Assembly (NCBI GenBank): GCA_025210555.1
Contig: JAOARL010000020.1
Span: 72,883 to 136,882, forward strand
DNA from: Clostridia bacterium
GTDB lineage: Bacteria > Bacillota > Clostridia > Lachnospirales > JAOARL01
Direction of reading: 5' to 3'
Length of the DNA: 64,000 nucleotides
The notes under the pieces were generated by a model, which ran no database searches, was not told the DNA's origin, and was given only the letters and a program-made list of their open reading frames with translations. The position numbers and the translations under genes were made by a program. Below are positions 4,874 to 63,620 of this stretch, in pieces (the first letter of the stretch is position 1; the number at the start of each line of letters is the position of its first letter).

Positions 4874-4930
4874 TGTTGATTAAAATTATGAATAATAGTA
4901 ATATATAAGGTGTTAAGAGGAGGTTTGTAT

Positions 4931-8078: not shown

Positions 8079-8091
8079 AAGGAGGAAACAC

Positions 8092-8805: not shown

Positions 8806-8807
8806 TT

Positions 8808-9632: not shown

Positions 9633-9643
9633 TGGTGATATAA

Positions 9644-9988
9644 GTGGAAATAAATAACATTTCTATGAAAGAAAATTTTAACATTGTTAATAATAAAGCA
9701 AAAAAAGAAGATACATCAAAATTCGAAGATATTTTAAAAGATAAAATAACAGATAAAGATAAGGAAGAACTTAAAGATGTTTGTGATAAGTTAGAGAGTC
9801 AATTTATCAACCTTATGTTTAAAGAGATGAGAAAAGGTTCTCAAAATCCTCTAATTCCTAAAAGTCAGACTGAAGAAATGTTTCAAGGGATGATAGATGA
9901 GGAATATTCTAAAAGGGCAAGTGAGTCGGATGGATTTGGATTATCTAAAATGATGTATGATCAATTAATTAGAAAGACTATTCAATAA
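9644..9988 (+). CDS. Rod-binding (FlgJ N-terminal-like) protein
   Basis: LESQFINLMFKEMRK...GFGLSKMMYDQL resembles the rod-binding domain of FlgJ. Follows the rod genes. GTG start; alternative start ATG 9665. Confidence 0.6.
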   Translation: MEINNISMKENFNIVNNKAKKEDTSKFEDILKDKITDKDKEELKDVCDKLESQFINLMFKEMRKGSQNPLIPKSQTEEMFQGMIDEEYSKRASESDGFGLSKMMYDQLIRKTIQ

Positions 9989-10003
9989 GAGTAGTCTTTT
10001 TTT
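9973..10003 (+). terminator. Rho-independent terminator overlapping the flgJ-like stop
   Basis: AAAGACTA / TAGTCTTT stem with an 11-nt loop, then a T7 run. Confidence 0.6.
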
Positions 10004-10074
10004 AGATGAATTTTATTAAATTTAAATTATGCATTATAATTATAGTAAGAACCATGTATAAAGGGGGGATTAAA

Positions 10075-11637: not shown

Positions 11638-11981
11638 TGAAAAATAAAAAATATTGTGTATTTGTATCTATGCTTGCAGTTCTTGGGATCTGGGTTGGAT
11701 TTAATACTTTGAGTTTTGAAAATTTTAATCTGGAGAGTATATTAGGGATAGCTAATATGCTGCTTATAATTATAACGTTAGTTTTTAGTATTAGTTCAAA
11801 GAAACCATTAGAAAATAATTTTACTAGGTTCTTCGTAGTATTTACAATTGGAGTGAATTTATTTTTTGAAATATATATATCTGTTTTGAAAGAAATTGAG
11901 TTAAACAAGCTGCTTTTAATTTACTTGGTAGTTATATCAGTATATTATACATATTTAATAAAACAAAAAAAGAGTTCTTAA
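11634..11981 (+). CDS. Small polytopic membrane protein (115 aa)
   Basis: ATGA start/stop overlap with the upstream ORF. RBS GAGGGA 7 nt upstream. Three to four hydrophobic segments. Confidence 0.5.
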   Translation: MMKNKKYCVFVSMLAVLGIWVGFNTLSFENFNLESILGIANMLLIIITLVFSISSKKPLENNFTRFFVVFTIGVNLFFEIYISVLKEIELNKLLLIYLVVISVYYTYLIKQKKSS

Positions 11982-38606: not shown

Positions 38607-38714
38607 AAATTAATAATACTACCAAGGGCATACAAAATTTATTTTTGTGTGTCTTTTTATATATCACTAGAGAACTGACATAAGGTAATAAAAAAGTTTT
38701 GAAAGGTGAGGGGT

Positions 38715-40748
38715 ATGAGTATTAAGAAGAAAATGGTTGGTATCTTTATGCTAATTATTATAATTCCGTTTTTTGTTTATATGGCTATGGCTTATAGAAC
38801 AACATATGGGTTTATAAAAACTGGTATAGAGGAAGAGGCATTACAGTTAGTTGAAGAAAAGAGTAAAGGTGTTGAGAGTTATTTTGACACATTTAAAAAA
38901 GGGTTAACGTTTTTAGCAAAAACTAATACGATGAGTGAAGCGGTTAAAGATTTTGAAAAAGCAGGAGTTAGAGGCTATATAAAAAATATAGAGGAAGCTT
39001 CATTTAGGACAGTTAATCAAAAAAATGTAGCAGGATTATTTAAGAAGTTTTATGATAGTTATAAGATAGCTACATGTATTTATTTAGGAGATTATAGGGA
39101 TAACTTTATACTAGTGCCTTACACTAAGCTTGATGAAGGCTATAAGGCAACAGGAAGAGACTGGTATAAGGAAGTTGAAACAAAGAGATTGCCTATTTGT
39201 ACAGCTCCTTATATAGATGATACGGAAGATGTAGATAAGGTTGTTATGACTATAGCGGTTCCTTTAATAAGAGAAGATAAATTTTTAGGGGTTATAGCAG
39301 CTGATATAGAACTCGAAGAATTTTTAAAAACAGTAAATAGTAGTAAAATTGGAGAAAGTGGATATGTATATATATTAGATGATGAAAATATTATTTCAGC
39401 ACATAATAATATGGATTTAATAGGTAAACTTGTTCCAGTAAGTAAGATAGAAGAAGAAATGTTAAAAGGAAAAGAGTCTGGGACTTTCACATATGTATAT
39501 AAAGGCGTTGAAAAGAAAGAATCTTATAAAAGACTTAGTAATGGATGGACTGTTCATGCAACTATACCAGTGCATGAAATTGATGGGCAAATAACAGATT
39601 TTGTGCTTAATTTCATATTTGCAGGAATGATAATATTGGTTCTAAGCGTAATAGTTTCATGGAATTATTCTAATGGATTTGTTAAAGAAATAAATAAGTT
39701 AATAGCAGGTGTTGAAAAATTAAAGGCTGGAGATTTAACTACTAAAGTTGATATCAATACTAATGATGAATTAGGTAAACTTGCTAGTGGATTTAACTCT
39801 ATGGCAGTAGTTATGAAAGGGCTATTAAACAGTATAAATGATTCAGCTGTTAAAATGTTTGATAGTTCAAGTAATCTTTCAGACAGTTCAAGCGAATTAA
39901 GCAAAAAGACTGAAGATGTTTCTAAGTCAACAGAAAATATTGCATCAGGTGCAACGGAACAAGCTGAGCAAGTTCAAGATATGGCAAGTAAAATTTCAGA
40001 TTTATCTAGTTCTATAGGAATAGTATCTGAAAGTATGGAGAGCATAAAAGACAATTCAAATAGCACATTAGATTTAAGTAATGATGGAATAGAAGTGGTA
40101 AAGAGTTTAAACACTAATTTCGAAGATACAAGAAATATTGTAAATGATATAGGAGAGGTTATTGATGATTTAGGTAAAAAGTCATTAGATATAGAGAAGA
40201 TTATAGAGACAATAACTCAAATATCAGAGCAAACTAACTTACTAGCACTTAATGCATCAATCGAAGCTGCAAGAGCTGGAGAACATGGTAAGGGATTTGC
40301 AGTAGTTGCAGATGAAATTAGAAAACTTGCAGAGCAGACAGCAAGTGCTACCCAAGAAATTGAAAAAATAATACAAGACATACAAAGTAGTACGGGTTCA
40401 GCTGTTAACATAATGGATAATTCAAAAGAAACTATGGCAGAAGGTGGAAAATCTGTTATAAATATGGAAGAATCATTTGGTAAGATAAATAATTCAATTA
40501 CATCTGTTGCAGAGCAAATACTTAGAGTTAATGGGGAAATAGAAAGCATAAACTCGAATAAAGATGTATTAATATCATCAGTTGAAAATATTTCATCTAT
40601 ATCAGAAGAGTTTGCAGCATCTAGTGAAGAGGTAACAGCTATGACTGAAACTCAAGTAGAGGAAGTTGGAAAAGTTGTAAGTGAAGTAGAAGAGCTTAAA
40701 AATCTTGGAAATAATTTGAAAGAAATAGTGAAGAGATTTAAAATATAA
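38715..40748 (+). CDS. Transmembrane methyl-accepting chemotaxis protein (double-Cache-like sensor, HAMP)
   Basis: TM1, a ~270-aa periplasmic domain, TM2, HAMP, and the conserved hairpin [40 protein letters not shown]. Confidence 0.9.
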
Positions 40749-41248: not shown

Positions 41249-42277
41249 ATGAAAAAGATTATAAGTGTATTTCTATTTATGTTAGTAGCTAGTAGATGTA
41301 ATGCAATTGGATTTAGTGATGTAAATAAAAATGATTGGTATTATGAGAGTATTAGTGAGTTAGAAAGTTTTGGGGTTGTAAATGGTTATGAAGACGGTAG
41401 TTTTAGACCTAAGGGTAAGGTTAAAGTTACGGAGTTTTTAAAGATGATATTAGAAACTGAAGGTTTTGACGTTGTAAAAAAAGATTTATGGCATGAGGGA
41501 TATATCGATAAATCAAGAGAATTAAAATTATTTGATGAAGAGTATACATATAGTGAAGATATAAAGAGAAAAGATGTTGCACTTATAATTAAAAGAATCA
41601 GTGAAAGTGATAGAAATTATAAGTCTATTAATTTTATAGATTTAGAAAATATAGAACCCAAATATGTAGATGCAATAGCTTATGTTTACAATAAAGAAAT
41701 TATAAATGGTTATCCAGATGGAACATTTAGACCAGAAGAAACACTGACAAGAGCTGAGGCAGCAACGTTAATAAAGAAATTTATCGAGTGGAAGGATAAA
41801 AAAGGCAAGTATACTGAAGAAGATAGTTTGACCTGGGAAGAAAAGGTGGATAAATTTTGGGAAGAAGAGTTTGTAGAGCCTGAATTTGAGGTTGTATATG
41901 ATTATCCTAGAGCATTTCATGCAATAAGAGTAATTAATTATGATAGAATGAATAATCCTAAAAAAATATATTTATCAGAATCCAGAATAAATTGTCTTAA
42001 TGTAATGGAATTAAATACGAGAGATAATTTTAATTTAAAAGAAGGCAAGTGGCTAACTTATAGACAAGATGAATGGAATTCTACAGGAAAACATATAAAG
42101 GTTTTAAAGGATAAATATTATACAACAAAAGATAATTTTAACAAGGGATTCAAAATAAGTAGTGACATGCATTTGGATTATAAAATTGAGTTAAAATTTT
42201 ATGGGATTTTAGAAGGTTCAAAAATATATAAAGAAAAAACATATTATTTGAAAAATATAAAGGCTAAGAAGGTATAA
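41249..42277 (+). CDS. SLH-domain cell-wall protein
   Basis: Signal peptide. SLH-type segments FSDVNKNDWYYESI...NGYEDGSFRP and YVDAIAYVY....INGYPDGTFRPEE.LTRAEAA. C-terminal domain unknown. Confidence 0.7.
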   Translation: MKKIISVFLFMLVASRCNAIGFSDVNKNDWYYESISELESFGVVNGYEDGSFRPKGKVKVTEFLKMILETEGFDVVKKDLWHEGYIDKSRELKLFDEEYTYSEDIKRKDVALIIKRISESDRNYKSINFIDLENIEPKYVDAIAYVYNKEIINGYPDGTFRPEETLTRAEAATLIKKFIEWKDKKGKYTEEDSLTWEEKVDKFWEEEFVEPEFEVVYDYPRAFHAIRVINYDRMNNPKKIYLSESRINCLNVMELNTRDNFNLKEGKWLTYRQDEWNSTGKHIKVLKDKYYTTKDNFNKGFKISSDMHLDYKIELKFYGILEGSKIYKEKTYYLKNIKAKKV

Positions 42278-42279
42278 TT

Positions 42280-45200
42280 ATGATTAAAAAAATTGTATTT
42301 AGTATGGTTATTATAATTGTTTTAAGTATTAAGTGTAGTGCAGAAAAAATAATATTAGATTATAAGGATATGAATCCTAACGAGGTTGCTACAGCTAAAT
42401 TAGAATTGATAAATAAAACTACAAATGAAAGACAAGTTTCAAATTTTATAGATTATCCTAGAGAAACAAAATTTGATCAGCAGCCGACTATTTTAAAAGC
42501 AATAGAAGGTGACGAAATAGAACTAAGAGACTTAAGTATTCCAAGTCAAAATGAACTAGATATTGAAAAATGGGATTTACAGATATATTCTCCATCAGGT
42601 AAAAAGTGGATTAATGTATATTCAAATATAAAAGATGTTGAAAAAACTATTGTAATGGATGAGGCAGGAACATGGAAGTTTTATTTGTGTGTAAAAGATT
42701 CGGCGCCCCTAAAGGAAGGTTATGAAAACTGGTCTTATAACGGTAATAGAAGGGCAATTAAAAAAGTACCTAATTTAGATAATGTCTATTATTATTGGTA
42801 TTTTACTCAGATAAATGTAGAAGTCTATGAAAAGCCAGATTCTAACTTATACATAGAAGGTAATATATCAGGAGATATCTTATCATTTACTGGAATATCA
42901 AAAGTATATGATATTTCAAAATATAAAGTAGAAGCTTTAGAGACAACATTAGATAGTGGAGTAGGAAATTACGGAAAAGTGATAGAGAAGAACATTAAAT
43001 TAGAGTTTGAAGAGAATACTTCAATAGATATTGTAATAGAAGATGCTAATGGAAAGAAAGCATATAAGAAATTGCAATATAGCCCGCATGAAAAGGTTAA
43101 TCCTAAAACAGAAATAAAGTTATTATCAGGAGGAGTAGAAACAGATCAATTTGTACCTGAAAAAGTAAGTGATGTAGATGGGATTATAAATGCTATAGAG
43201 TGGAGTTATGTAGATAGTGATAAATTTAAAAAAGCTAACATAGAAATTTATAGGTTGTCTGATAATGGAGAAGTGTTAATTTATAGAGGAAGATGTGACA
43301 AAAGAAGTTATATATTTAAGGGTGGATATGGAATATATAAGGTTTTGTGTTCTGTTGAAAATGAACTAGAAGAGTATGCGGAAGACAGTGGAATTTTTTA
43401 TGTGTCTGAACCAAAGCCAAGTGTTGAAATTACGGCAGATAGCAAAGTATTTCAAAAAGATAATTTGAAAATAAGTATAGATGAAAAAGATGATGAATAT
43501 CCAAATAAATATTATGAAGTTACTTATAAATCGTGGGAGATAATATCAATTTATAACAATAAGACTATCTTGAGTGGAGATGGAAGAATTCCAAGTAAAA
43601 TATATATAGATCAAAGTTTTGAAGAAGGAAATTCATACGTAATAAAGCAAAAAATTGAAAACGGAATATTCACAGCAGATAGTGAAACAATATTTTATGT
43701 TGAGCGAGTACTTTTGCCGACAATTAATATGACTAATTTTAATATATTTGAAGGGGAGACTAAAGAAATAGATGTAGATATATATCAAACATATGAATCT
43801 GATTTTAAATATGAAGATAAAATTGAAAAGAGATATGAAATTTTAGATTCAGATATGAATATCATAAAATCAGCTAGAGGTGTTAAAAATATTTTTAATT
43901 CAAATGGTTATGAAGTTGGAAAAAATTATTACTATAAGCAATATGCAACAAATGTTAAAGGTAAGACTTCAGATAGAAAGATATCATTTAGCGTTATGAA
44001 AGTTAACTCGCCAGAAATAACTATGGAAATAGTCGATAGAGATGAAGATATATTGACGTTGCCTAATCAAATATATATAGGGGAGACAATTATTTTAGAA
44101 ACTAAAGTGAAAGATAACTATTTTGAAATTATAGATGAGTATTATGAAATTAAAAATCATAAATTTAATGGAATTGTTAATGGAGAAATATATTTTAATT
44201 TTGAGTTAGGTGATAATCTTATAACTCAATATGCTACAAATGCTAAATATAAGACGGCAAATGATACTGTTAGAGTGTTTGTAAGAGAACCTGAAATTCC
44301 GATAATAAGATCTAGAGGAGATTTGGTTGAAAATGTATATATAAGAGATGAAATAAATCTTAAATTAGAAATTCTTGATGTAAATAAATCTGATATGCAC
44401 CCAAATGGATATGAACTTGAAGGGCATTATAGAGTTGTATGTGAAGATGAAAATGTAATACTAGAAGAAAATGGAATAAGTACAGGATTATTAACAATAG
44501 ATTCAAGATATAGTGTTAATAAAAAGTATAAATTTATTCAAGTTGTTAATAATGTAGAACATAAAGATAAAAAAGCAACTTTTGAATATAGTTTCAGGGT
44601 TTTAAATAGATTCCCAAATATAGAAGCAGAAGTTTTTATAGGTGATAATAAACTACCTAATTATATGGGAGAATATATAAATATAGACTTATTAATTACA
44701 GATGAAGATGGTTATATTGAAACGGTTGAGTACAATAAAAAGAAAGCTCTAAAAGAGAAATTTGTAAATGGAAAATACTATGCAAATATAAAATATAAAG
44801 CAGATAAAATAGGGAGTGAAGAAATAATAATAAAAGCAATTGATGATGCTGGTGGAATTAGCACTAAGAGAATTTTAATAGATATAGGATATCCGAATAT
44901 TGAACTGGAACTAAAATTTAATGGAGATAGAATGAAAGAAAATAGATATATAACATTGGATATTGAGGATAATAATAAAACAGATATGAAAATTCAAAAA
45001 TATGAGATTGATTATGATAGTGAGCTAGTTCGATTAGTTTATAATGATATGGGTAGTTATGGGATGTATTTTAAAAAGAAGGGTGAATACAAGTTTAGAG
45101 TGAGAGGAATTTGTGACAATGAAATAGTAACTAAGTGGTTTGAAAAAAGTATAAACATAGAAGAAGATTTTGTTCCAAATTCAGGATTTAAAGTTATGAA

Positions 45201-45693
45201 TAAAGGGCATAGAGTTATAGAAGGTGAAAATTTTGGAAGTATAGAATTAGGATGTGTAGGAAATAAAAACTTAGATGACGAGGTGATTAGTATATACAAG
45301 ATTACATATGATTATAATGAAAACGGAATTTATGAAGAAGATGAAATAGATTATGTAGGTGATTTTAATGATATATATGATGGAAAGAATTTAGGTAATT
45401 ATAAGATTGAAAGGGTTGTTACTGATAATATTAAGCAGTTACCAGATAAGGGGCATGAGTTACATGATGAAATAAGAAGAAAAGTAAAAAAATCCAGAAC
45501 GATACTTAAAGATATATTTATTGATAATTTAAGACCGACAATAACATTTAATTATAATGATGAAAAAGATATAACATTAATTGTACAATATGATTTTCAT
45601 CCAACTAAAGACGACAGAGATGCTATAAATGAACTTATTGATAAACTCAAAGGTGTTGGGGTGAGAGTGAATCTTGTAGAAGATATTTATTAA
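42280..45693 (+). CDS. Very large secreted multi-module protein (1137 aa), function unknown
   Basis: Signal peptide. At least four recurring beta-rich modules ending in ..Q(Y/K)ATN.K.KT....(V/F)..V-like strings. Starts 3 nt after the SLH gene stop. Confidence 0.7.
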   Translation: MIKKIVFSMVIIIVLSIKCSAEKIILDYKDMNPNEVATAKLELINKTTNERQVSNFIDYPRETKFDQQPTILKAIEGDEIELRDLSIPSQNELDIEKWDLQIYSPSGKKWINVYSNIKDVEKTIVMDEAGTWKFYLCVKDSAPLKEGYENWSYNGNRRAIKKVPNLDNVYYYWYFTQINVEVYEKPDSNLYIEGNISGDILSFTGISKVYDISKYKVEALETTLDSGVGNYGKVIEKNIKLEFEENTSIDIVIEDANGKKAYKKLQYSPHEKVNPKTEIKLLSGGVETDQFVPEKVSDVDGIINAIEWSYVDSDKFKKANIEIYRLSDNGEVLIYRGRCDKRSYIFKGGYGIYKVLCSVENELEEYAEDSGIFYVSEPKPSVEITADSKVFQKDNLKISIDEKDDEYPNKYYEVTYKSWEIISIYNNKTILSGDGRIPSKIYIDQSFEEGNSYVIKQKIENGIFTADSETIFYVERVLLPTINMTNFNIFEGETKEIDVDIYQTYESDFKYEDKIEKRYEILDSDMNIIKSARGVKNIFNSNGYEVGKNYYYKQYATNVKGKTSDRKISFSVMKVNSPEITMEIVDRDEDILTLPNQIYIGETIILETKVKDNYFEIIDEYYEIKNHKFNGIVNGEIYFNFELGDNLITQYATNAKYKTANDTVRVFVREPEIPIIRSRGDLVENVYIRDEINLKLEILDVNKSDMHPNGYELEGHYRVVCEDENVILEENGISTGLLTIDSRYSVNKKYKFIQVVNNVEHKDKKATFEYSFRVLNRFPNIEAEVFIGDNKLPNYMGEYINIDLLITDEDGYIETVEYNKKKALKEKFVNGKYYANIKYKADKIGSEEIIIKAIDDAGGISTKRILIDIGYPNIELELKFNGDRMKENRYITLDIEDNNKTDMKIQKYEIDYDSELVRLVYNDMGSYGMYFKKKGEYKFRVRGICDNEIVTKWFEKSINIEEDFVPNSGFKVMNKGHRVIEGENFGSIELGCVGNKNLDDEVISIYKITYDYNENGIYEEDEIDYVGDFNDIYDGKNLGNYKIERVVTDNIKQLPDKGHELHDEIRRKVKKSRTILKDIFIDNLRPTITFNYNDEKDITLIVQYDFHPTKDDRDAINELIDKLKGVGVRVNLVEDIY

Positions 45694-45727: not shown

Positions 45728-46832
45728 ATGATAGAATTAGATCAAATTAAACAAAGTATGAGTAATTATAAATTGGAAGAAATTAGGGATTCACTTTGAC
45801 TATGATAAAGCAAAAAATAAAATAGAAGAATTAGAAGAACTAAGTGCAGCTCCAGATTTTTGGAATGATGTTGATGCTGCCAATAAAGTTATGCAAGAGG
45901 TTAAATATTATAAAAGCAAAGTATCTATATTTGACAATTTAGAAACTGAGTATGAAGATATTTTAGTGCTCATAGAAATGGCAATAGAAGAAAATGATGA
46001 GGGCTTAATAAGTGAAGTTGATGAAACTTTTGAGTCATTTAAAAGAGATTTTGAAGAAGCAAAGTTAAATAGTTTGTTAGATGGTGAATTTGATAAAAAT
46101 AACGCAATATTGTCTTTGCATGCTGGAGCTGGTGGAACAGAAGCATGTGACTGGGTAGCTATGCTATATAGAATGTATATAAGGTATGCGGAAAGAGCTG
46201 GATATAAAACAGAATTAATTGATATGTTAGATGGAGAAGAAGCAGGAATTAAGTCAGTTACATTTTCAATTATAGGACCTAATGCGTATGGTTTTTTAAA
46301 ATCAGAAAAGGGTGTACATAGACTAGTAAGAATATCACCTTTTGATTCATCAGGAAGAAGACATACGTCATTTGCAGCATGTGATGTTCTTCCAGAGATT
46401 GAAGATGATAGTACGATAGATATAAAAACAGAAGATCTTAAAATAGATACATATAGAGCAAGTGGAGCTGGTGGACAGCATGTAAACACTACTGATTCAG
46501 CTGTTAGAATAACACACATTCCAACAGGAATAGTTGTTCAATGTCAAAATGAAAGATCTCAACATAAAAATAAAGATAGAGCTATGAAAATGTTAAAATC
46601 AAAACTAGCAGAAGCAATGGAAATAGAAAGAATGGAAAAGCTAGATGATATTAGAGGAGATGTTAAGCATATAGATTTTGGAAGTCAAATACGATCATAT
46701 GTATTCCAGCCTTATAACATGGTAAAAGATCATAGGACAAGTGCTGAAACAGGTAACGCCAATGGTGTTATGGATGGGAATATAGAATTATTTATAAATG
46801 AATATCTAAAATGGATTCATAAAAGTGAATAA
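45728..46832 (+). CDS. prfB: Peptide chain release factor 2, requires a +1 programmed frameshift at 45797
   Basis: Frame 0 is ATG 45728 ... CTT TGA (45794-45799). The +1 frame from GAC 45798 is continuous with track ORF 45891-46832 and contains SPF and GGQ motifs. Confidence 0.9.
45785..45800 (+). promoter_or_regulatory. prfB +1 frameshift site
   Basis: AGGGA (SD-like), 4 nt, then CTT TGA C. This is the canonical RF2 autoregulatory slippery site. Confidence 0.85.
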
Positions 46833-53165: not shown

Positions 53166-53574
53166 TAGTGATATTGAAAGACTTTTGGAAATAGAAAAAG
53201 AAAACTTTCCAGATCCTTGGACTAAGGAAATGTTTTTGAATACATCAGCTGATATATATATACTTTTAAATGCAGAAGAGATTGTTGGTTATATAGAAGT
53301 GATGCTAGTAATTGATGAACTACATATAAATAATATTGCTATTTCTGATCAATATAAAGGAAGTGGAGCAAGTAAATATTTATATGATGAAGTCATAAAA
53401 AAATATGGTAAAATAATAGGTGTAACATTAGAAGTAAGAAGTGGAAATTATAGAGCAATAAAATTTTATGAAAAATTAGGATTTGAAAAATATGGATTAA
53501 GAAAAAATTATTATACTAATCCTAAAGAAGATGCGTTAATTATGTGGAATTATGCGAAAGGGGAGAGCAAATGA
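53143..53574 (+). CDS. rimI: Ribosomal-protein-alanine N-acetyltransferase
   Basis: GNAT fold (LEVR..N..A...YEKLGF). Conserved position after tsaB. 23-nt overlap with tsaB. Confidence 0.85.
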   Translation: MNVRKVIDSDIERLLEIEKENFPDPWTKEMFLNTSADIYILLNAEEIVGYIEVMLVIDELHINNIAISDQYKGSGASKYLYDEVIKKYGKIIGVTLEVRSGNYRAIKFYEKLGFEKYGLRKNYYTNPKEDALIMWNYAKGESK

Positions 53575-55970
53575 AACGTAGTAAAAAATTAAGTTATGAG
53601 GAATTATCACACAAGTGTGATTTTAGCAAATTAGATTTTAAATCAACAAAGGAAGTTGAGCCGATTTTTGAAATAATAGGCCAAAATAGAGCTGAAAAAG
53701 CTATGGAATTTGGACTTAATATAGATATTAAAGGGTATAATATTTATATGTCTGGACCAACAGGAGTTGGTAAAACAAGTTATGCACTTAATCATATAAC
53801 TGAAATAGCAAAAGGTAAGGAAATTCCAAACGATTGGTGTTATGTTTATAATTTTGAAAACAAATCACATCCAAGAGTTCTTGAATTTGAAGCTGGACAA
53901 GCTAAACTTTTTGCAAAAGATATAGACAAAATGGTAGAAGATATGATTATTGATATACCAAAAATGTTTAATGCAGAAACTTATGATGCTGAGAAAATAA
54001 AAATTGTAAGAAAGTACCAACTTCAAAAAGATGAAGTTATGAAGGAACTTAAGAAAAAAGCTAAAGATATGGGATTTGTTGTTAAAAGTAATGAATCTAC
54101 AATATACTTTATGCCTATTGTTAATGGAGAAACTCTTGATGAAGAAAAATACAATGAATTAAGTGAAAAGAAAAAAGATGAAATTAACAAAAAATCTATG
54201 GAGATTCAAGTAGATGCTGAAGAAATTATGAAAAGTGTAAGAGAGCTTGATAAGAATTTCAAATCAGATATGGATGAACTTGAAAAAACAACAGGTGATT
54301 TGGCTATCAACCATCATATAGTTCAAATGAAAAAGAAATATGAAGAAGTGGATAAGGTAGATGAGTATTTAGATGCTCTTAAAAAAGATGTTATTGAAAA
54401 TATTAGAGAGTTTTTAGATGAAGAAGGTGAAGCTGAGGAAGAAAGTATAATTCCTTGGACAGTAAAGAAAGATTTGAAAGAAGTTACACGTAAATATAAA
54501 GTTAACTTATTTATTGATAACTCAAAACTTGAAGGAGCACCAGTTGTAATAGATTCTAATCCAACTTATGACAAGCTTATTGGTAAGGTTGAATATGAAA
54601 ATGAAATGGGTAACTTAGTTACTGATTTTGAAAAGATAAAACCAGGACTATTACACAAAGCTAATGGAGGATATTTGATTTTACAAGCTAAGGATTTGTT
54701 ATCTAATCAATATTCTTGGGAAGCACTTAAGAGAGCTCTTAAGCTAAAAGAAATACATATTGAAAGTTTGAGAGACCAATATTCATTAGTTTCAATAGTT
54801 ACTCTTAAGCCAGAAGAAATTCCGTTAGATGTAAAAGTAGTATTAGTAGGTGGGGAAGATATTTACCATATGCTATATGACTATGATGAAGAGTTTAATA
54901 AGTACTTTAAAGTAAGAGTTGATTTTAATGGTGAAATGGAAAATAATGCAGAAAATGCACTTAGAATAGCAGAGTTTGTTAGAGCATTTGTAGACAATGA
55001 AAAAACTAATCACTTTAACAAAAAAGCTGTTGAAGAAATAATTAAGTATTCTTCAAGAATGTGTGAAAGTAGAGATAAGCTTTCTACTAAATTTAATAAA
55101 ATGATAGAAATATTATCAGAGGCTGCAACATTCTCTAAACTTGAGGGAAAGAAACTTGTAACGGACAAGCATGTAGAGAGAGCTATAGTAGAAAGAGAAT
55201 ATAGATCAAATTTATATGAAGAAAGAATGAGAGAGCTTACGGAAAAAGAAGTATTCTTAATAGATACTAAAGGTGAAGCTGTTGGGCAAATTAATGGACT
55301 TGCTGTTTTAGATACAGGAGATTATACATTTGGAAGACCTCAAAGAATTACAGCTACTACATATATGGGTGGAGCTGGAGTTGTAAACATAGAAAAAGAA
55401 GCAGATCTTAGTGGTAACATACATGATAAAGGTATAAATATATTAGGTGGTTATTTAGGGCAAAAATATGCTCAAGAGTTCCCATTAACATTATCTTGTA
55501 GAATAGCATTTGAACAAAGTTATGGTGGAGTAGATGGAGATAGTGCATCAAGTACTGAGTTATATGCTATACTATCATCTCTTTCAGATCTTCCAATAAC
55601 ACAAGAAATTGCAGTTACAGGATCTATAAACCAAAAAGGAGAAATACAACCAATTGGTGGTGTTAATCATAAAATAGAAGGATTCTATAAGCTTTGTAAG
55701 CACAGAGGTCTTACAGGTAATCAAGGAGTTATAATACCATATCAAAATGTAAATGATTTAGTATTAAAAGATGAAGTAATGGATTCAATTAAAAAAGGAA
55801 AGTTTAGTGTATATGCAATTAAAAATATAGAAGAAGGAATTGAAATTTTAACAGGAGCAAAAGCTGGTAAAAAAGGGAAAAACGGTAAATATCCTAAAGA
55901 TTCTATACATGGAAAGGTTTATGACAAACTTACTAAGTTTCATGATAATTTAAGTAAAGGTGGAAAATAA
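53571..55970 (+). CDS. Lon-like (LonC/AAA_32-type) protease
   Basis: Walker A GPTGVGKTS. Long coiled insertion. Walker-B position reads GGYLILQAKD with no hhhhDE. Lon proteolytic dyad context is present (GDSAS ... GGV..K). ATG 53571 overlaps the rimI stop. Confidence 0.85.
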   Translation: MKRSKKLSYEELSHKCDFSKLDFKSTKEVEPIFEIIGQNRAEKAMEFGLNIDIKGYNIYMSGPTGVGKTSYALNHITEIAKGKEIPNDWCYVYNFENKSHPRVLEFEAGQAKLFAKDIDKMVEDMIIDIPKMFNAETYDAEKIKIVRKYQLQKDEVMKELKKKAKDMGFVVKSNESTIYFMPIVNGETLDEEKYNELSEKKKDEINKKSMEIQVDAEEIMKSVRELDKNFKSDMDELEKTTGDLAINHHIVQMKKKYEEVDKVDEYLDALKKDVIENIREFLDEEGEAEEESIIPWTVKKDLKEVTRKYKVNLFIDNSKLEGAPVVIDSNPTYDKLIGKVEYENEMGNLVTDFEKIKPGLLHKANGGYLILQAKDLLSNQYSWEALKRALKLKEIHIESLRDQYSLVSIVTLKPEEIPLDVKVVLVGGEDIYHMLYDYDEEFNKYFKVRVDFNGEMENNAENALRIAEFVRAFVDNEKTNHFNKKAVEEIIKYSSRMCESRDKLSTKFNKMIEILSEAATFSKLEGKKLVTDKHVERAIVEREYRSNLYEERMRELTEKEVFLIDTKGEAVGQINGLAVLDTGDYTFGRPQRITATTYMGGAGVVNIEKEADLSGNIHDKGINILGGYLGQKYAQEFPLTLSCRIAFEQSYGGVDGDSASSTELYAILSSLSDLPITQEIAVTGSINQKGEIQPIGGVNHKIEGFYKLCKHRGLTGNQGVIIPYQNVNDLVLKDEVMDSIKKGKFSVYAIKNIEEGIEILTGAKAGKKGKNGKYPKDSIHGKVYDKLTKFHDNLSKGGK

Positions 55971-56794
55971 TGAAAAAATATGCTTTTTATTTAATAGTTA
56001 TATATATATTCTTAAGGTTGTTTAATATAAACAACTTTGAGGATCTTAATAAAACACTAAGTAGAGCTTGGGATGAGAGAGATAATTTTATAGAGCTGGT
56101 TACAGAAGCTTTTTCTGAAGTAGAAGAAGATTATGATAATATATATAATGATGACTTAAAATATATTTCTGCAAGTGAAAAAATCAAAAAAGATGTTGAA
56201 AATAATAGGGATATGTTTTTGACAGTAAGAATCTCAAAAGATGAAGAAGCATATATATTCTCAGATGTTAATTTTTCTCTAAAGATAAATAGTACATCTT
56301 TAAAAGATGCAGGATTAAATATGTTTAGAAAAATAGAAGATACAAAGGCAGAAGATATCGAAGATTTAAAAATTATAGGTGGAAGTAATATTTATAGCCT
56401 TGATGATTTAATTGATATAGTAGATGAAGAAAATTATAAAGGGAATTTGTATTTATATCTTGCAGATTCTAAAGGAGAAGCAGCAGACGCTATATTAAAT
56501 GAAGTTAAGGATTTAAAAGTAACAATATTAGTAGATAATAAAAAGGATTATGACAAAGTTGAATTTGATAATAAGGGATTGTACATTAAAGATGATATCA
56601 AATTAGATGAGAATATTGAATTTGCAATTGTTAGAGAGGAATATATAAAGAGTAATCATAAAAATATAAATAGATTATTTGCAATAAAAACAGCGCTTAA
56701 TGAAAAGTTTAAAGTTAATGAGATTAACTCATTAGATAAAAAATATAAAACAAATGGTTTTGTTGTTAGTAATATAGAAGACATATTAAAATAG
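55970..56794 (+). CDS. Hypothetical membrane-anchored protein (274 aa)
   Basis: TAATG overlap with the Lon-like gene. RBS AAGGTGGA. Single N-terminal TM. Confidence 0.5.
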   Translation: MKKYAFYLIVIYIFLRLFNINNFEDLNKTLSRAWDERDNFIELVTEAFSEVEEDYDNIYNDDLKYISASEKIKKDVENNRDMFLTVRISKDEEAYIFSDVNFSLKINSTSLKDAGLNMFRKIEDTKAEDIEDLKIIGGSNIYSLDDLIDIVDEENYKGNLYLYLADSKGEAADAILNEVKDLKVTILVDNKKDYDKVEFDNKGLYIKDDIKLDENIEFAIVREEYIKSNHKNINRLFAIKTALNEKFKVNEINSLDKKYKTNGFVVSNIEDILK

Positions 56795-56803
56795 GAGGCA
56801 ACT

Positions 56804-57097
56804 ATGAAAAAATATTTACTTTTACTACTTATATGGGTTGGTTATATGCAAATGGAAGGAAACATTGATGTTAATGAAATAATATCGGATGTTGCAAGCG
56901 GTTCATTTATGACAGAATCTGACTCGGAGGATTCAAATGGTGTTAATGAATTAATGGATAAGATTATCGAATCATTTGATGGAGAGTTGACAAAAGCGGA
57001 AAAAGAAGAATTAAAAAAAGATTTAGAAGAACTAAAAAAAGAAAATCCAGATGCAGAAATTGAAGATTTGGAAATAGCTGATTTGAGAGATTATTAA
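56804..57097 (+). CDS. Hypothetical small exported acidic protein (97 aa)
   Basis: RBS TAGGAGG. N-terminal hydrophobic segment, then an Asp/Glu-rich tail. Confidence 0.45.
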   Translation: MKKYLLLLLIWVGYMQMEGNIDVNEIISDVASGSFMTESDSEDSNGVNELMDKIIESFDGELTKAEKEELKKDLEELKKENPDAEIEDLEIADLRDY

Positions 57098-61185: not shown

Positions 61186-61213
61186 TTTACATATTTCATG
61201 GTTTTGATATAAT
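61186..61213 (+). promoter_or_regulatory. Sigma-A-type promoter with an extended -10
   Basis: TTTACA (61186-61191), 16-nt spacer, TGaTATAAT (61205-61213). Confidence 0.45.
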
Positions 61214-61244
61214 TAACTTACCAAACTTATAAGGAGGGCATTAA

Positions 61245-63161
61245 ATGCAAAAAGGGCTAATATACACGGTTGAGGAAAATTGTGTAGGATGTAACTCATG
61301 TATCAGAAGCTGTCCAGTTGCAACAGCAAATGTTGCTGAATTGCAAGGGGACGGAACAGCAAAAATTCATATCGATTATGATAGCTGTATTCATTGTGGA
61401 AAATGTATAGACGTATGTAATCACGAAGCAAGAGAATATAGAGATGATATAGATAGATTTTTTGAAGATCTTGAAAAAGGAAAGGTAATATCACTGGTGG
61501 TAGCACCAGCAATAAGAACTAACTTTGTTACAAATTATAAGAATCTTTTTGGATTTTTAAAATCAAAAGGTGTAAATTTAATTTATGATACTTCGTTTGG
61601 AGCAGAAATCACAACGTGGGCATATATTAAAAAAATAACAGAAAATGGACTTGAGGGAACTATATCTCAACCTTGTCCAGCAATTGTTAATTACATTGAA
61701 AAATTTGAAGATGGACTTATAAAGAAATTAGCACCAGTGCACAGTCCAATGATGTGTACAGCAGTATATATGAGAGAATATGATGGAATAAAAGATAATA
61801 TTGCATTTATTTCACCGTGTATTGCTAAAACTGATGAGGTAAATGATGATAACACAGATAAATATGCAAGCTATAATATAACATTTAAAAAATTAGATGA
61901 ATATATTAAGAAAAATGGAATAAATTTAAACCAATACGAAAGTGCAAATTTCGATGATATGGGACATGGATTTGGAGCGGTATTTCCAAGGCCAGGAGGA
62001 CTTAAAGAAAATGTATTATACCATGTACCAGCAGCTTGGGTAAGACAAGTTGAGGGACAAGGTGAAGTATATGAGTATTTTGGAGAGTATGATGAGAGGG
62101 TAAACAATACAAGCAAGAGTTTACCACTACTTGTTGATGCACTTAATTGTCCGCATGGGTGTAACATGGGAACAGGAACTAAAAAAGAAGTTTCAATAGA
62201 TGATATTGATGAAATTATGGATATAAAGAGGTTGCAAGCAAAAGGTCAAGAAAAAGGTATGCTTAAGAAGAAGTATATGCTTTTTGAAGATTTTAACAAG
62301 AATTTAGATGTTGAAAAGTTTGTAAGAGATTATGATAATAAGTCAATAAAGGTAAAAGTGCCTACTAAATTAGAAATTGAATCAGAGTATGAAAAGTTAT
62401 ATAAAGTTACAACTGAAGACAAGAAAATAGATTGTTCAGCTTGTGGTTATGAGAGCTGTGAGGATATGGCAGTTGCAATGGCGAGAGGAATAAATACTAA
62501 AGAAAATTGTATTTACTATAATAGAAAATTAGTAGAGCATGAAAAAATGGGAATAGAAGATAAAAATAAAGAAATAGAACAGGTTCTTGAAGAGGTTAAA
62601 ACATTAAGTTCTGAAAGAGAAAAATCTGCAAAAGAACTTCAAAAGAGCGTTCAATCTATAACAAGTGCACTTACAGAAGTTTCAAGTGGAAATGAAAATA
62701 CTACAAATGAAATAGATATGATTGGAAGAAAGATTGAAAACATAGTTAAACTTTCAAATGAACTAAAAAGTGTTGTAGGAGTAATAGAAGAAGATATTGA
62801 GAAGTATATTAAATCTTCAGAGGCAATTGTTAAGATTGCAGGACAAACAAACTTACTTTCACTTAATGCGTCAATTGAAGCAGCTAGAGCTGGAGAACAT
62901 GGAAAAGGTTTTGCGGTTGTTGCAGAGGAAGTAAGAAATCTTTCAGAGGAAACAAAAATTTCAGCAGAGTCAACTCAGAATAATAATGAGGAGTTAAAGA
63001 ACATTATAGATAAGATTTCTGGGATGTCTGACGAAATAGAAACAGAAATGGAAGAAATAAATGATGCTATTCAAAGTATTGCAGCTCAATCAGAAGAGAT
63101 TACAGCTAATACTCAAGAAATAGCAGCAGTGGCAAATACAATTGCTAATAAGGAAAATTAA
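61245..63161 (+). CDS. Soluble methyl-accepting chemotaxis protein with an [FeFe]-hydrogenase-like (H-cluster) sensor domain
   Basis: Two CxxCxxCxxxCP ferredoxin motifs. H-cluster motifs SQPCP (Cys codon 61674), SPCIAKTDE (Cys 61818), [11 protein letters not shown] (Cys 62148 and 62160). [13 protein letters not shown] FeS motif. MCP hairpin [37 protein letters not shown]. No TM. Confidence 0.85.
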
Positions 63162-63164
63162 GAA

Positions 63165-63192
63165 GAGATTGCTAATAGCAATCTTTTTTTGT
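63165..63192 (+). terminator. Rho-independent terminator
   Basis: AGAGATTGCT-AAT-AGCAATCTTT then T-run. Confidence 0.8.
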
Positions 63193-63307: not shown

Positions 63308-63487
63308 ATGAATAAAGAAGAAAGAGAAAGTTGTATACAAAAATTTATAGATGAAGTAAATGCAGCTAATTACTCAGAAAGTCCTATAAACCAAAGATTT
63401 GACGGGACATTAGTAGATGATAATGGAAATCCATTAGGAAAAGAAAAAGCGGAGCAAGATCTTGGGGAAATTGAGGTAACAGCATAA
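63308..63487 (+). CDS. Possible small acidic protein (59 aa), not in the ORF track
   Basis: ATG 63308, 7 nt after AAGGAG. MNKEERESCIQKFIDEVNAANYSESPINQRFDGTLVDDNGNPLGKEKAEQDLGEIEVTA. Confidence 0.35.
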   Translation: MNKEERESCIQKFIDEVNAANYSESPINQRFDGTLVDDNGNPLGKEKAEQDLGEIEVTA

Positions 63488-63535: not shown

Positions 63536-63620
63536 GCAATTGTGGCGGAATTGGCATACGCGCTAGACTAAGGATCTAGTGCCCGTATAGGGCTTGAGGG
63601 TTCGAGTCCCTCCAATTGCA
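63536..63620 (+). tRNA. tRNA-Leu, class II, anticodon AAG (A34)
   Basis: Hand-folded. Acceptor GCAATTG/CAATTGC plus discriminator A. D-arm with GG. Anticodon stem CTAGA/TCTAG, loop C-T-AAG-G-A. Variable arm GCCC/GGGC. T-arm GAGGG-TTCGAGT-CCCTC. No encoded CCA. Confidence 0.85.

What the first reader, a model, noticed from the sequence alone, without database searches (positions are those of the whole stretch)
61245..63161. Cytoplasmic chemoreceptor whose input module is an [FeFe]-hydrogenase-like H-cluster domain lacking the proton-relay cysteine
**Seen in sequence.** A 638-aa protein with no TM segment has this domain order:
- Two clostridial 4Fe-4S ferredoxin motifs ([24 protein letters not shown]).
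- A domain with the three H-cluster signature motifs of [FeFe]-hydrogenase large subunits.
- [14 protein letters not shown]-type extra Fe-S motif.
- A coiled coil and the near-invariant MCP signalling hairpin.

In motif 1, the canonical TSCCP is SQPCP. The cluster-ligating Cys is kept, but the adjacent Cys used for proton transfer in catalytic enzymes is Pro (codon 61671-61673). Motifs 2 (SPCIAKTDE) and 3 (NCPHGCNMG) keep their cysteines.

**Established knowledge.** Loss of the proton-relay Cys is a hallmark of sensory (HydS-type, group C) [FeFe]-hydrogenases. Genome surveys have predicted an MCP-linked chemotactic subgroup. As far as I know, no member has been characterised biochemically or shown to mediate H2 or redox taxis.

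**Inference.** This is a candidate H2 or redox taxis receptor feeding the flagellar system, whose rod genes are also in this window.
Basis: partly seen in the sequence, partly recalled or inferred. Interest (0 to 1): 0.72.

Follow-up and report, generated by a model that had tools for sequence, protein, structure and literature searches.

The report
Hydrogenase-like sensor fused to a chemoreceptor
This gene encodes a soluble chemotaxis receptor whose sensing part is a non-catalytic-type iron-iron hydrogenase domain, a predicted but never tested kind of hydrogen or redox sensor, and this copy is an ordinary member of a large family.

Summary
ORF 61245-63161 (+) encodes a 638-aa protein with no TM segment. 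It has two ferredoxin-type 4Fe-4S motifs, an [FeFe]-hydrogenase H-domain and a Cx2Cx4Cx16C cluster. An MCP signalling hairpin follows.

All four H-cluster cysteines align, and the proton-relay Cys position is Pro143 (codon 61671-61673). An AlphaFold model (pLDDT 84) matches solved [FeFe]-hydrogenases over about 430-450 alignment columns.

It is not a one-off. More than 100 full-length homologues (45-71% identity) share the architecture. The class is already named in HydDB as [FeFe] group C2, "Chemotactic (putative)". I found no paper characterising a member.

New points:
- Pro in an (S/A/T)QPCP motif is clade-wide. The two characterised sensory enzymes, TmHydS and TamHydS, have Ala there.
- The same ~430-aa module is fused interchangeably to MCP, GGDEF, histidine-kinase, EAL and PP2C outputs. 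That argues for a portable sensor.
- The last cluster cysteine sits on the helix that becomes the MCP coiled coil.
- The gene stands alone, with no conserved neighbours.

Untestable here: whether hydEFG are present and whether a [2Fe] subcluster binds. The signal could therefore be H2, or only redox state or O2.

Verdict: new member of a known, predicted kind; moderate interest.

The parts
61186..61213 (+). Promoter-like site: TTTACA, 16-nt spacer, TATAAT, with TG before the -10 hexamer.
   Evidence: 11 of 12 matches, the best in the region. This is a consensus match only.
61231..61238 (+). Ribosome-binding site AAGGAGGG, 6 nt before the ATG.
   Evidence: Read directly.
61245..63161 (+). CDS for the 638-aa cytoplasmic chemoreceptor with a hydrogenase-like sensor module.
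61263..61430 (+). Residues 7-62: two ferredoxin-type [4Fe-4S] motifs (Cys 13, 16, 19, 23, 48, 51, 54, 58).
   Evidence: Pfam Fer4_7 and Fer4_10. All 8 Cys are invariant in 34 family members.
61488..62171 (+). Residues 82-309: [FeFe]-hydrogenase H-domain.
   Evidence: PF02906, E 9e-29. Sequence matches to solved hydrogenases. Foldseek match to 8a6t, 8zqd, CpI and others.
61665..61679 (+). Motif 1, SQPCP (residues 141-145). Pro143 occupies the proton-relay Cys (CpI C299) position. Cys144 is the cluster ligand (CpI C300).
   Evidence: Aligned to TSCCP of CbA5H. Codon cct at 61671-61673. Pro in 132 of 144 representatives.
61812..61838 (+). Motif 2, SPCIAKTDE (residues 190-198). Ser190 is at the CpI M353 position. 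Cys192 = C355, Lys195 = K358, Glu198 = E361.
   Evidence: Aligned to MPCIAKKYE. C, K and E are invariant or nearly so.
62136..62171 (+). Motif 3, [12 protein letters not shown] (residues 298-309). Leu300 is at the CpI M497 position. Cys302 = C499, Cys306 = C503.
   Evidence: Aligned to EIMACVGGCIGG as a separate weak segment. C302 and C306 are invariant.
62433..62510 (+). C-terminal accessory cluster motif Cx2Cx4Cx16C (Cys 397, 400, 405, 422).
   Evidence: Pfam FeS PF04060. All four Cys are invariant. The spacing was found in every family member where the pattern was detected. The same motif is described for TmHydS and TamHydS.
62499..63152 (+). Residues 419-636: two long helices (419-548 and 550-636) forming the linker stalk plus the MCP hairpin. 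Cys422 lies in the first turn of the first helix.
   Evidence: AlphaFold secondary structure. MCPsignal at 513-634.
62856..62912 (+). Conserved MCP hairpin tip [19 protein letters not shown] (residues 538-556), the CheA/CheW-contact region.
   Evidence: Invariant residues at L538-F556. 54% identity to the tip region of the window's other MCP. Matches to 2ch7 and 3g6b.
63166..63190 (+). Terminator-like hairpin AGATTGCT-AAT-AGCAATCT followed by six T.
   Evidence: Sequence. The hairpin is listed, reported there on the minus strand because it is palindromic.

Best explanation
The gene encodes a soluble chemoreceptor, presumably dimeric, whose input is a HydS-type (non-catalytic) [FeFe]-hydrogenase module.

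**Proposed mechanism**
- The module carries two N-terminal [4Fe-4S] clusters, an H-cluster site and a C-terminal [4Fe-4S] cluster.
- H2 reacts slowly at the H-cluster because the group-A proton relay is missing: C299 is Pro143, and E279, E282 and S319 are not conserved.
- H2 level, read against the redox state of the accessory clusters, therefore sets the redox or conformational state of the module.
- That state passes through the C-terminal cluster domain into the MCP hairpin. The last ligand of that cluster, Cys422, sits on the start of the continuous 130-residue helix that forms one arm of the hairpin.
- The hairpin tip then modulates CheA, and through CheY the flagellar motor.

**Shown here:** domain architecture, ligand conservation, fold, family size, and reuse of the same module with many signalling outputs.

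**Inferred:** [2Fe] cofactor binding, H2 as the signal, the transmission route, and coupling to the flagellar Che pathway.
For: **Architecture and fold**
- Domains score above the Pfam cutoffs.
- Scores for the catalytic group A and B1 NCBIfam models are far below their cutoffs: 107 against 406, and 134 against 450.
- The four H-cluster Cys, K358, E361 and the A230/P231 equivalents are invariant or nearly so.
- The AlphaFold model has pLDDT 84. It matches solved [FeFe]-hydrogenases at Foldseek E 4e-17 to 1e-12 over 430-450 alignment columns.

**Sensory-type features**
- The C299 position is Pro, M353 is Ser190 and M497 is Leu300.
- Ser and Leu at those two positions are the same pair as in TamHydS.
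- The Cx2Cx4Cx16C motif is the one shared by TmHydS and TamHydS. Both enzymes take up [2Fe]adt, react with H2 and turn over slowly.

**Portable sensor module**
- In a search of 1.84 billion representative proteins, 711 hits had E <= 1e-30. In 149 of the top 150 the match starts within the first 30 residues. Total lengths range from 296 to 1693 aa, and some of the shortest look truncated.
- Of 145 with the C-terminal motif, 56 end in an MCP domain.
- Of 57 others scanned: 20 GGDEF, 20 HisKA, 6 EAL, 4 SpoIIE/PP2C, 13 receiver domains, and 12 with PAS_9, the commonest PAS model.
- Output types are interleaved in sequence space. Module identity is 41.4% between MCP-fused members and 39.9% between MCP-fused and other members. 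A GGDEF-fused relative is 53% identical to this module.

**Expression and setting**
- The gene has its own promoter-like site, RBS and terminator.
- The organism has flagellar rod genes and a second MCP.
Against: - No hydE, hydF, hydG, cheA, cheW or cheY was found in the 64-kb window or in about 13 kb of flanks. None was found next to homologues in three genomes with gene annotations. In 23 MAG loci no neighbour recurred across the family, and the ten recurrent neighbour clusters that I scanned are housekeeping genes.
- From my own knowledge, eukaryotic Nar1/NARFL proteins keep the same cysteine motifs yet carry no [2Fe] site. Motif conservation therefore does not prove an H-cluster.
- Pro at the C299 position has not been studied. 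Both characterised sensory enzymes have Ala.
[quoted passage not shown] That argues against the simplest redox-relay version of the mechanism.
- One genome survey discarded group C2 hits because they failed its validation checks for hydrogenases (PMC9431212).
- The signalling domain is short, about 24 heptads. Pathway assignment for 24H receptors is generally unresolved (PMC7534058).
Confidence: 0.58

Rival explanations
1. It is a [4Fe-4S]-only redox or oxygen sensor. The H-domain keeps only its cubane, as in Nar1/NARFL-type hydrogenase-like proteins, and no [2Fe] subcluster is inserted. The four clusters then report the ferredoxin-pool redox state, or oxidative damage, to the chemotaxis machinery. 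That would be energy taxis or aerophobic taxis.
For: - No maturase genes were seen anywhere I could look.
- Pro at the position next to the adt bridgehead is untested and could hinder cofactor insertion or function (describes only Ala).
- The loop at 242-251 next to the pocket is the only low-confidence stretch of the model.
- C2 hits were dropped because they failed one survey's validation checks for hydrogenases.
Against: - Pocket residues that serve the [2Fe] site in group A stay nearly invariant across 144 representatives: K195, A87/P88, S167/P168 and G251-G252-L253.
- The nearest characterised relatives with the same Ser/Leu second sphere and the same C-terminal cluster do bind [2Fe]adt and react with H2.
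- Named hosts are anaerobes of lineages rich in [FeFe]-hydrogenases, such as Sporomusa and Clostridia. That these lineages are hydrogenase-rich is my own knowledge.
Confidence: 0.22
2. It carries an H-cluster, but the physiological signal is O2 or CO rather than H2. Both bind the distal iron, and binding would report an inhibitor or danger signal for a strict anaerobe.
For: TamHydS shows unusual CO tolerance and forms a defined O2-derived state (Hair) instead of simply being destroyed. Sensory-type pockets therefore do react distinctively with these gases.
Against: TamHydS has a lower Km for H2 (90-100 uM) than group A and C enzymes (above 400 uM), which fits H2 detection. No data exist for the QPCP clade.
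Confidence: 0.1
3. The sensor reading is right, but the output is not flagellar chemotaxis. The short MCP domain would feed a Che-like pathway that controls another behaviour, such as biofilm formation, pili or development.
For: - The signalling domain is about 24 heptads, against 44 for the membrane MCP in the same window.
- The pathway for 24H receptors is often unassigned.
- Sister proteins drive c-di-GMP and two-component outputs.
Against: - The hairpin tip is nearly identical to that of the window's dCache MCP (54% identity over the tip region).
- Flagellar genes are present.
- No alternative Che cluster was seen.
Confidence: 0.15
4. It is an active metabolic hydrogenase that happens to be tethered to the chemoreceptor array.
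For: It has the full complement of cluster ligands and a ferredoxin-like electron entry domain.
Against: - The group-A proton pathway is missing.
- Scores against the group A and B models are far below the cutoffs.
- Relatives lacking the relay turn over about a thousand-fold more slowly.
- The module is reused with purely regulatory outputs.
Confidence: 0.02

Closest known systems
HydDB [FeFe]-hydrogenase group C2, 'Chemotactic (putative)' (Sondergaard, Pedersen & Greening 2016, PMC5037454)
   Same: It has a hydrogenase-like H-domain of the putative sensory type that is associated with a methyl-accepting chemotaxis signalling domain. The proposed role is H2 sensing that feeds chemotaxis.
   Different: Nothing differs in kind. 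This is a typical member, 45-71% identical to more than 100 proteins of the same architecture. The class is defined only by sequence clustering and has no characterised member. I could not run the HydDB classifier.
TamHydS, Thermoanaerobacter mathranii (group D / M2e putative sensory [FeFe]-hydrogenase)
   Same: - Two N-terminal [4Fe-4S] motifs, an H-domain and a C-terminal Cx2Cx4Cx16C cluster.
- C299 lost, M353 replaced by Ser and M497 replaced by Leu.
   Different: - TamHydS has Ala137 at the C299 position; this protein has Pro143 in a QPCP motif.
- TamHydS has no fused output domain; this protein continues into an MCP hairpin.
- If TamHydS E252 corresponds to CpI V423, as I infer from the paper's statement that Val occupies this position in group A, then it corresponds here to Leu253. 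Leu is found there in 137 of 144 representatives. The group-D proton path is then probably not shared. This mapping is inferred from the GG(L/V) motif and my own CpI numbering.
- TamHydS was not among the 269 relatives retrieved.
TmHydS, Thermotoga maritima (group C / M2f putative sensory [FeFe]-hydrogenase)
   Same: The sensor layout is the same, and an output-type domain follows the C-terminal cluster. C299 is lost.
   Different: - TmHydS has Ala131, with M353 replaced by Gly and M497 by Ser.
- Its C-terminal domain is PAS, not MCP.
Cytoplasmic redox/gas chemoreceptors (Aer with FAD-PAS, HemAT with haem-globin, soluble PAS-24H receptors of Vibrio)
   Same: These are soluble or inward-facing MCPs that read an intracellular cofactor's state and drive energy or gas taxis. 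Vibrio also has short soluble 24H receptors.
   Different: The cofactor and fold are unrelated. Here the sensor is a four-cluster hydrogenase module. This comparison rests on my own knowledge of Aer and HemAT.
Nar1 / NARFL (IOP1) hydrogenase-like proteins
   Same: They have the H-domain fold with the cluster cysteines kept and the proton-relay Cys lost.
   Different: - They are eukaryotic cytosolic Fe-S assembly factors.
- They have no [2Fe] site, no Cx2Cx4Cx16C domain and no signalling output.
- Cited from my own knowledge and not tested here.

Membership tests
[FeFe]-hydrogenase H-domain superfamily (PF02906) | Profile match above the curated cutoff. | tested here: met
   101.3 bits against a cutoff of 22.1, residues 82-309.
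[FeFe]-hydrogenase H-domain superfamily (PF02906) | Four cysteines that ligate the H-cluster (CpI C300, C355, C499, C503). | tested here: met
   C144, C192, C302 and C306 align to the TSCCP, MPCxxK and MxCxxGC motifs of CbA5H. All four are invariant in the family.
[FeFe]-hydrogenase H-domain superfamily (PF02906) | Hydrogenase fold. | tested here: met
   AlphaFold model with pLDDT 84. Foldseek E 4e-17 to 8a6t_A, followed by CbA5H, TmHydA, DdH and CpI.
[FeFe]-hydrogenase H-domain superfamily (PF02906) | A [2Fe] subcluster installed by HydE/F/G. | not testable with these tools
   No maturase genes were found in the window or its flanks. The source genome is not available: the best genome match to this protein is only 47% identical.
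Catalytic [FeFe]-hydrogenases, groups A and B | NCBIfam TIGR02512 (group A) or TIGR04105 (B1) above the cutoff, and a TSCCP motif with the proton-relay Cys. | tested here: not met
   107.3 bits against 405.95, and 133.7 against 450. The motif is SQPCP.
Putative sensory [FeFe]-hydrogenases (HydS, groups C/D) | Proton-relay Cys (C299) absent and the group-A proton pathway not conserved. | tested here: met
   Position 143 is Pro. By alignment to CbA5H and CpI numbering from my own knowledge, E279 falls in a gap next to W125, E282 is Y127 and S319 is A163.
Putative sensory [FeFe]-hydrogenases (HydS, groups C/D) | C-terminal Cx2Cx4Cx16C accessory cluster after the H-domain. | tested here: met
   C397, C400, C405 and C422 are invariant with exact spacing. 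The motif is defined.
Putative sensory [FeFe]-hydrogenases (HydS, groups C/D) | Ala at the C299 position, as in both characterised members. | tested here: not met
   Pro in this protein and in 132 of 144 representatives. Ala occurs in only 5.
Group C (M2f) HydS | PAS domain after the C-terminal cluster. | tested here: not met
   No PAS hit. An MCP hairpin follows directly.
HydDB group C2 (chemotactic) | Sensory-type H-domain linked to a methyl-accepting chemotaxis protein domain. | tested here: met
   Both domains are in one polypeptide. The same is true of all 120 listed homologues.
HydDB group C2 (chemotactic) | Assignment by the HydDB k-NN / sequence-similarity-network classifier. | not testable with these tools
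   The classifier and reference set are not available here.
Methyl-accepting chemotaxis proteins | MCPsignal profile above the cutoff, with the conserved hairpin tip. | tested here: met
   89.1 bits against 34.6. The tip residues are invariant. Matches to 2ch7 and 3g6b.
Methyl-accepting chemotaxis proteins | Methylation (adaptation) sites. | tested here: inconclusive
   Two consensus-like sites lie one heptad apart: AAQS-EE(617/618)-ITAN and TANT-QE(624/625)-IAAV (sequence). This is motif inspection only.
Methyl-accepting chemotaxis proteins | Partner CheA/CheW/CheY in the genome. | not testable with these tools
   None in the window or its flanks. Flagellar rod genes and a second MCP are present.

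The most novel reading that the evidence does not exclude
The (S/A/T)QPCP clade is a distinct, biochemically unexplored type of H-cluster site, with Pro rather than Ala or Cys beside the adt bridgehead. Bacteria would use it as a universal plug-in H2 sensor, wired to chemotaxis, c-di-GMP turnover, two-component signalling and PP2C phosphatases. This protein would then be a direct H2 chemoreceptor. I found no report of a molecular receptor for bacterial H2 taxis.
Probability: 0.4. Interest if true: 0.75.

Novelty: new member of a known kind. Interest (0 to 1): 0.45.

Why it matters
H2 is a central currency of anaerobic communities, yet no receptor for H2 taxis has been identified in bacteria. 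The only demonstrated H2 taxis I found is in the archaeon Methanococcus maripaludis, and I did not check that paper for a receptor (PMC3817446).

If this family binds an H-cluster and signals H2, three things would follow:
- It would explain how fermenters, acetogens and syntrophs position themselves in H2 gradients.
- It would give a clean readout (CheA activity) for the still unproven "sensory hydrogenase" hypothesis.
- It would add a Pro-type second sphere to the set used to understand how proteins tune the H-cluster.

This particular copy comes from an uncultured low-GC member of the Clostridia. Orthologues in cultured Sporomusa, Serpentinicella and Alkalithermobacter are the practical test systems.

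Tried and rejected
**1. Maturase and che genes.** I looked for hydE/F/G and cheA/W/Y in these places and found none:
- Every ORF of the window large enough to matter.
- 10 kb upstream and about 3 kb downstream of the window, on sister contigs.
- Next to orthologues in Serpentinicella, Alkalithermobacter and Sporomusa.
- In 23 MAG loci I clustered ORFs of at least 120 aa and scanned only the ten recurrent neighbour clusters. All ten are housekeeping genes.

This says the gene stands alone. It says nothing about the rest of the genome.

**2. Source genome.** It is not in the species-representative collection. The best match to this protein is 47% identical, and Tex is 65% identical to Lachnospiraceae, Anaerosporobacter, Anaerocolumna and Vallitalea.

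**3. Conserved small partner.** The 59-aa ORF downstream (63308-63487) shows no evident similarity, by inspection of its sequence, to the 55-aa ORF downstream of the Serpentinicella orthologue. My own translation call was one base out of frame.

**4. TamHydS and TmHydS among the relatives.** I searched the 269 retrieved proteins with published residue numbers as a fingerprint. Neither was present. The comparison with them therefore rests on the papers, not on an alignment made here. Supplements held no sequence.

**5. Literature.** Searches for any characterised MCP-linked hydrogenase or bacterial H2 chemoreceptor found only the HydDB class definition and passing mentions. Greening et al. 2016 (PMC4817680) is not held.

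**6. Motif conservation as proof of [2Fe] binding.** I rejected this argument. From my own knowledge, Nar1-type proteins keep the same motifs without the cofactor.
Full report
**Observation**

The ORF at 61245-63161 (+) is real and encodes 638 residues. The codon for the residue replacing the proton-relay cysteine is cct (Pro143) at 61671-61673.

Pfam places four elements in the order described, all above their gathering scores:
- a ferredoxin-type dicluster domain (residues 7-62);
- Fe_hyd_lg_C (82-309, E 9e-29);
- the small "FeS" domain PF04060 (394-424);
- MCPsignal (513-634, E 4e-25).

The protein has no hydrophobic stretch long enough for a membrane helix: the highest 19-residue Kyte-Doolittle mean is 0.91. 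Sixteen of its 17 cysteines fall in the four cluster motifs. The identical protein is encoded on independent metagenome contigs, so it is not an assembly chimera.

**Mapping onto hydrogenases**

Sequence comparison with solved structures aligns three motifs to the O2-tolerant group-A enzyme CbA5H (8zqd/9f46):
- SQPCP aligns to TSCCP.
- [10 protein letters not shown] aligns to IMPCIAKKYE.
- With a family profile, DiLNCxxGCNxG aligns to EIMACVGGCIGG.

In CpI numbering, which is established knowledge for these motifs:
- the ligands C300, C355, C499 and C503 are Cys144, 192, 302 and 306;
- K358 is Lys195 and E361 is Glu198;
- C299 is Pro143, M353 is Ser190 and M497 is Leu300.

The other group-A proton-pathway residues are not conserved. 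E279 falls in a gap next to Trp125, E282 is Tyr127 and S319 is Ala163. These three use the CbA5H alignment together with my recollection of the CpI sequence around residues 267-326.

NCBIfam models for catalytic groups A and B1 score far below their cutoffs. An AlphaFold model built on a 34-sequence family alignment is confident (mean pLDDT 84, pTM 0.67). Foldseek matches its first ~430 residues to HydA1 of the T. kivui HydABC complex, CbA5H, TmHydA, DdH and CpI, with E 4e-17 to 1e-12.

**The family**

The protein is an ordinary member of a large family.
- The 120 best database hits are all 628-682 aa and cover 96-100% of the query at 45-71% identity. All carry both PF02906 and PF00015.
- Named hosts include Alkalithermobacter, Serpentinicella, Desulfitispora, Desulfonispora and Sporomusa. 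MAGs labelled Lachnospiraceae, Ignavibacteriales and Deltaproteobacteria also carry it.
- In a 34-member alignment all 16 cluster cysteines are invariant. So are Q142-P143-C144-P145, S190-P191-C192, K195, E198, G251-G252-L253 and the MCP tip residues.
- Motif 1 is AQPCP or SQPCP in 112 of the 120.

**A portable sensor module**

I searched residues 1-430 against 1.84 billion representative proteins. This gave 3303 hits at E <= 1e-3, and 711 at E <= 1e-30.
- In 149 of the best 150 the match starts within the first 30 residues. Total lengths run from 296 to 1693 aa, and some of the shortest look truncated.
- Of 145 that carry the Cx2Cx4Cx16C motif, 56 end in an MCP domain.
- Of 57 others scanned with Pfam: 20 have GGDEF, 20 HisKA (19 with HATPase_c), 13 receiver domains, 6 EAL, 4 SpoIIE/PP2C, 3 Hpt, 1 an HD-GYP-type HD domain and 1 STAS. 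PAS_9, the commonest PAS model, is in 12.
- Output types are interleaved in sequence space. Mean module identity is 41.4% between MCP-fused members and 39.9% between MCP-fused and other members. The nearest neighbour has the same output type in only 107 of 144 cases. A GGDEF-fused protein is 53% identical to this module, about as close as the best MCP-fused representatives.
- Across all these outputs, Pro occupies the C299 position in 132 of 144, Ser the M353 position in 130, and Leu the M497 position in 139.

Repeated recombination of one input with many signalling outputs is the classic signature of a sensor domain. I regard it as the strongest comparative argument that this module senses rather than catalyses.

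**What is known**

[quoted passage not shown] The class is therefore already named.
- Only two sensory-type enzymes have been characterised: TmHydS (group C, PAS-linked) and TamHydS (group D, no output domain).
- Both have the two N-terminal clusters and the Cx2Cx4Cx16C cluster, and both lack C299. Both bind [2Fe]adt, react with H2 and turn over slowly (PMC8163306; PMC10407848; PMC11803613).
- In both, C299 is Ala (A131 and A137). The literature says the residue is "mostly" Ala in groups C and D.
- This clade has Pro instead. It shares TamHydS's Ser/Leu pair at M353/M497, not TmHydS's Gly/Ser.
- I found no paper that characterises an MCP-linked member or identifies a bacterial H2 chemoreceptor.
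- One survey of acetogenic clostridia discarded its group C2 hits because they failed its validation checks (PMC9431212).

**Signal transmission**

In the model, helix 419-548 runs without a break from the C-terminal cluster domain to the hairpin tip, and helix 550-636 returns. Cys422, the fourth ligand of the C-terminal cluster, lies in the first turn of that helix. This gives a direct mechanical link between the cluster domain and the signalling coiled coil (inference from a predicted monomer; MCPs are dimers).

Against a simple redox relay, the C-terminal cluster of TamHydS did not change redox state under H2, and the authors favour another role for this region (PMC13104023). [quoted passage not shown]

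The tip is at Glu551 and the returning arm is 87 residues, about 12 heptads. By length the signalling domain is therefore of the short ~24H type. The dCache-HAMP MCP in the same window (38706-40748) has a 154-residue returning arm, which makes it 44H. Pathway assignment for 24H receptors is generally unsettled (PMC7534058). Two consensus-like methylation sites, E617/E618 and Q624/E625, lie one heptad apart (sequence; motif inspection only).

**Genomic setting**

The gene stands alone.
- It has a strong promoter-like site (61186-61213), a good RBS, and a hairpin followed by a T-run after the stop codon.
- Upstream, on the opposite strand, is an AI-2E-family transporter gene. Downstream are a 59-aa ORF and tRNA-Leu.
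- The rest of the window is housekeeping. It includes cysS, mbl-flgF-flgG, rpsF-ssb, gdpP-rplI-dnaB, pth-mfd, tilS-ftsH, pcrA, prfB, tex, znuABC, tsaEB, a Lon-like protease and infC-rpmI-rplT (rpmI is from the gene table of sister contig L001).
- No hydE/F/G or che genes occur there, or in 10 kb upstream and ~3 kb downstream on sister contigs.
- Orthologues in Serpentinicella, Alkalithermobacter and Sporomusa have unrelated neighbours. In 23 MAG loci no neighbour recurs across the family, and the ten recurrent neighbour clusters I scanned are housekeeping genes.
- The organism is an uncultured low-GC (29%) member of the Clostridia. Its Tex protein is at most 65% identical to Lachnospiraceae, Anaerosporobacter, Anaerocolumna and Vallitalea.

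**Verdict**

- I am about 90% confident that this is a cytoplasmic chemoreceptor with a HydS-type hydrogenase-like sensor, a member of the predicted HydDB C2 class.
- I am about 58% confident that it binds a [2Fe] subcluster and reports H2.
- The main rival, at about 22%, is a [4Fe-4S]-only redox or O2 sensor. Cysteine-motif conservation cannot exclude it, because Nar1-type proteins keep these motifs without the cofactor (my own knowledge).
- The decisive in-silico test, co-occurrence with hydEFG in complete genomes, could not be run with these tools.

Novelty: a new member of a known but uncharacterised kind. The points worth carrying forward are the clade-wide Pro at the C299 position, the promiscuous reuse of the module, and the placement of the last cluster ligand on the signalling helix.

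Noticed in passing
63536-63620 (+): A tRNA-Leu with anticodon AAG (anticodon loop CTAAGGA). An A34 leucine tRNA is unusual in bacteria, where A34 is normally confined to tRNA-Arg(ACG). It could imply wobble inosine in a Leu tRNA.
   Followed up: partly
45729-46832 (+): prfB (release factor 2) with the classic programmed +1 frameshift site CTT TGA C at 45794-45800. The mechanical ORF list shows only the 313-aa downstream part (45891-46832).
   Followed up: partly
15507-17477 (+): A 656-aa protein with several ankyrin repeats in its C-terminal part (residues 513-643). This is uncommon in free-living bacteria.
   Followed up: no
41249-45693 (+): An SLH-domain protein (41249-42277) followed by a 1137-aa ORF with no Pfam hit. 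It is probably a cell-surface or S-layer locus. Another SLH protein lies at 4910-6784.
   Followed up: no
38706-40748 (+): A second chemoreceptor: a dCache-HAMP-MCP with a 44-heptad signalling domain. The hydrogenase-linked receptor is about 10 heptads per arm shorter, which raises the question of whether the two can share one array.
   Followed up: partly
7086-11981 (+): An mbl - flgF-like - flgG-like - rod-binding-protein block, followed by 543-aa and 115-aa ORFs with no Pfam hits.
   Followed up: no
53544-57097 (+): A LonC/LonB-like AAA protease (808 aa), followed by 274-aa and 97-aa ORFs with no Pfam hits. The trio is kept on sister contig L001.
   Followed up: no
Relatives P0121-P0269 (no window coordinates): The same hydrogenase-like module is fused to GGDEF, EAL, histidine-kinase, PP2C, HD-GYP-type and STAS outputs, in proteins up to 1693 aa. 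HydDB names kinase-, MCP- and phosphatase-linked subgroups. The papers I read did not mention the c-di-GMP-linked forms.
   Followed up: partly
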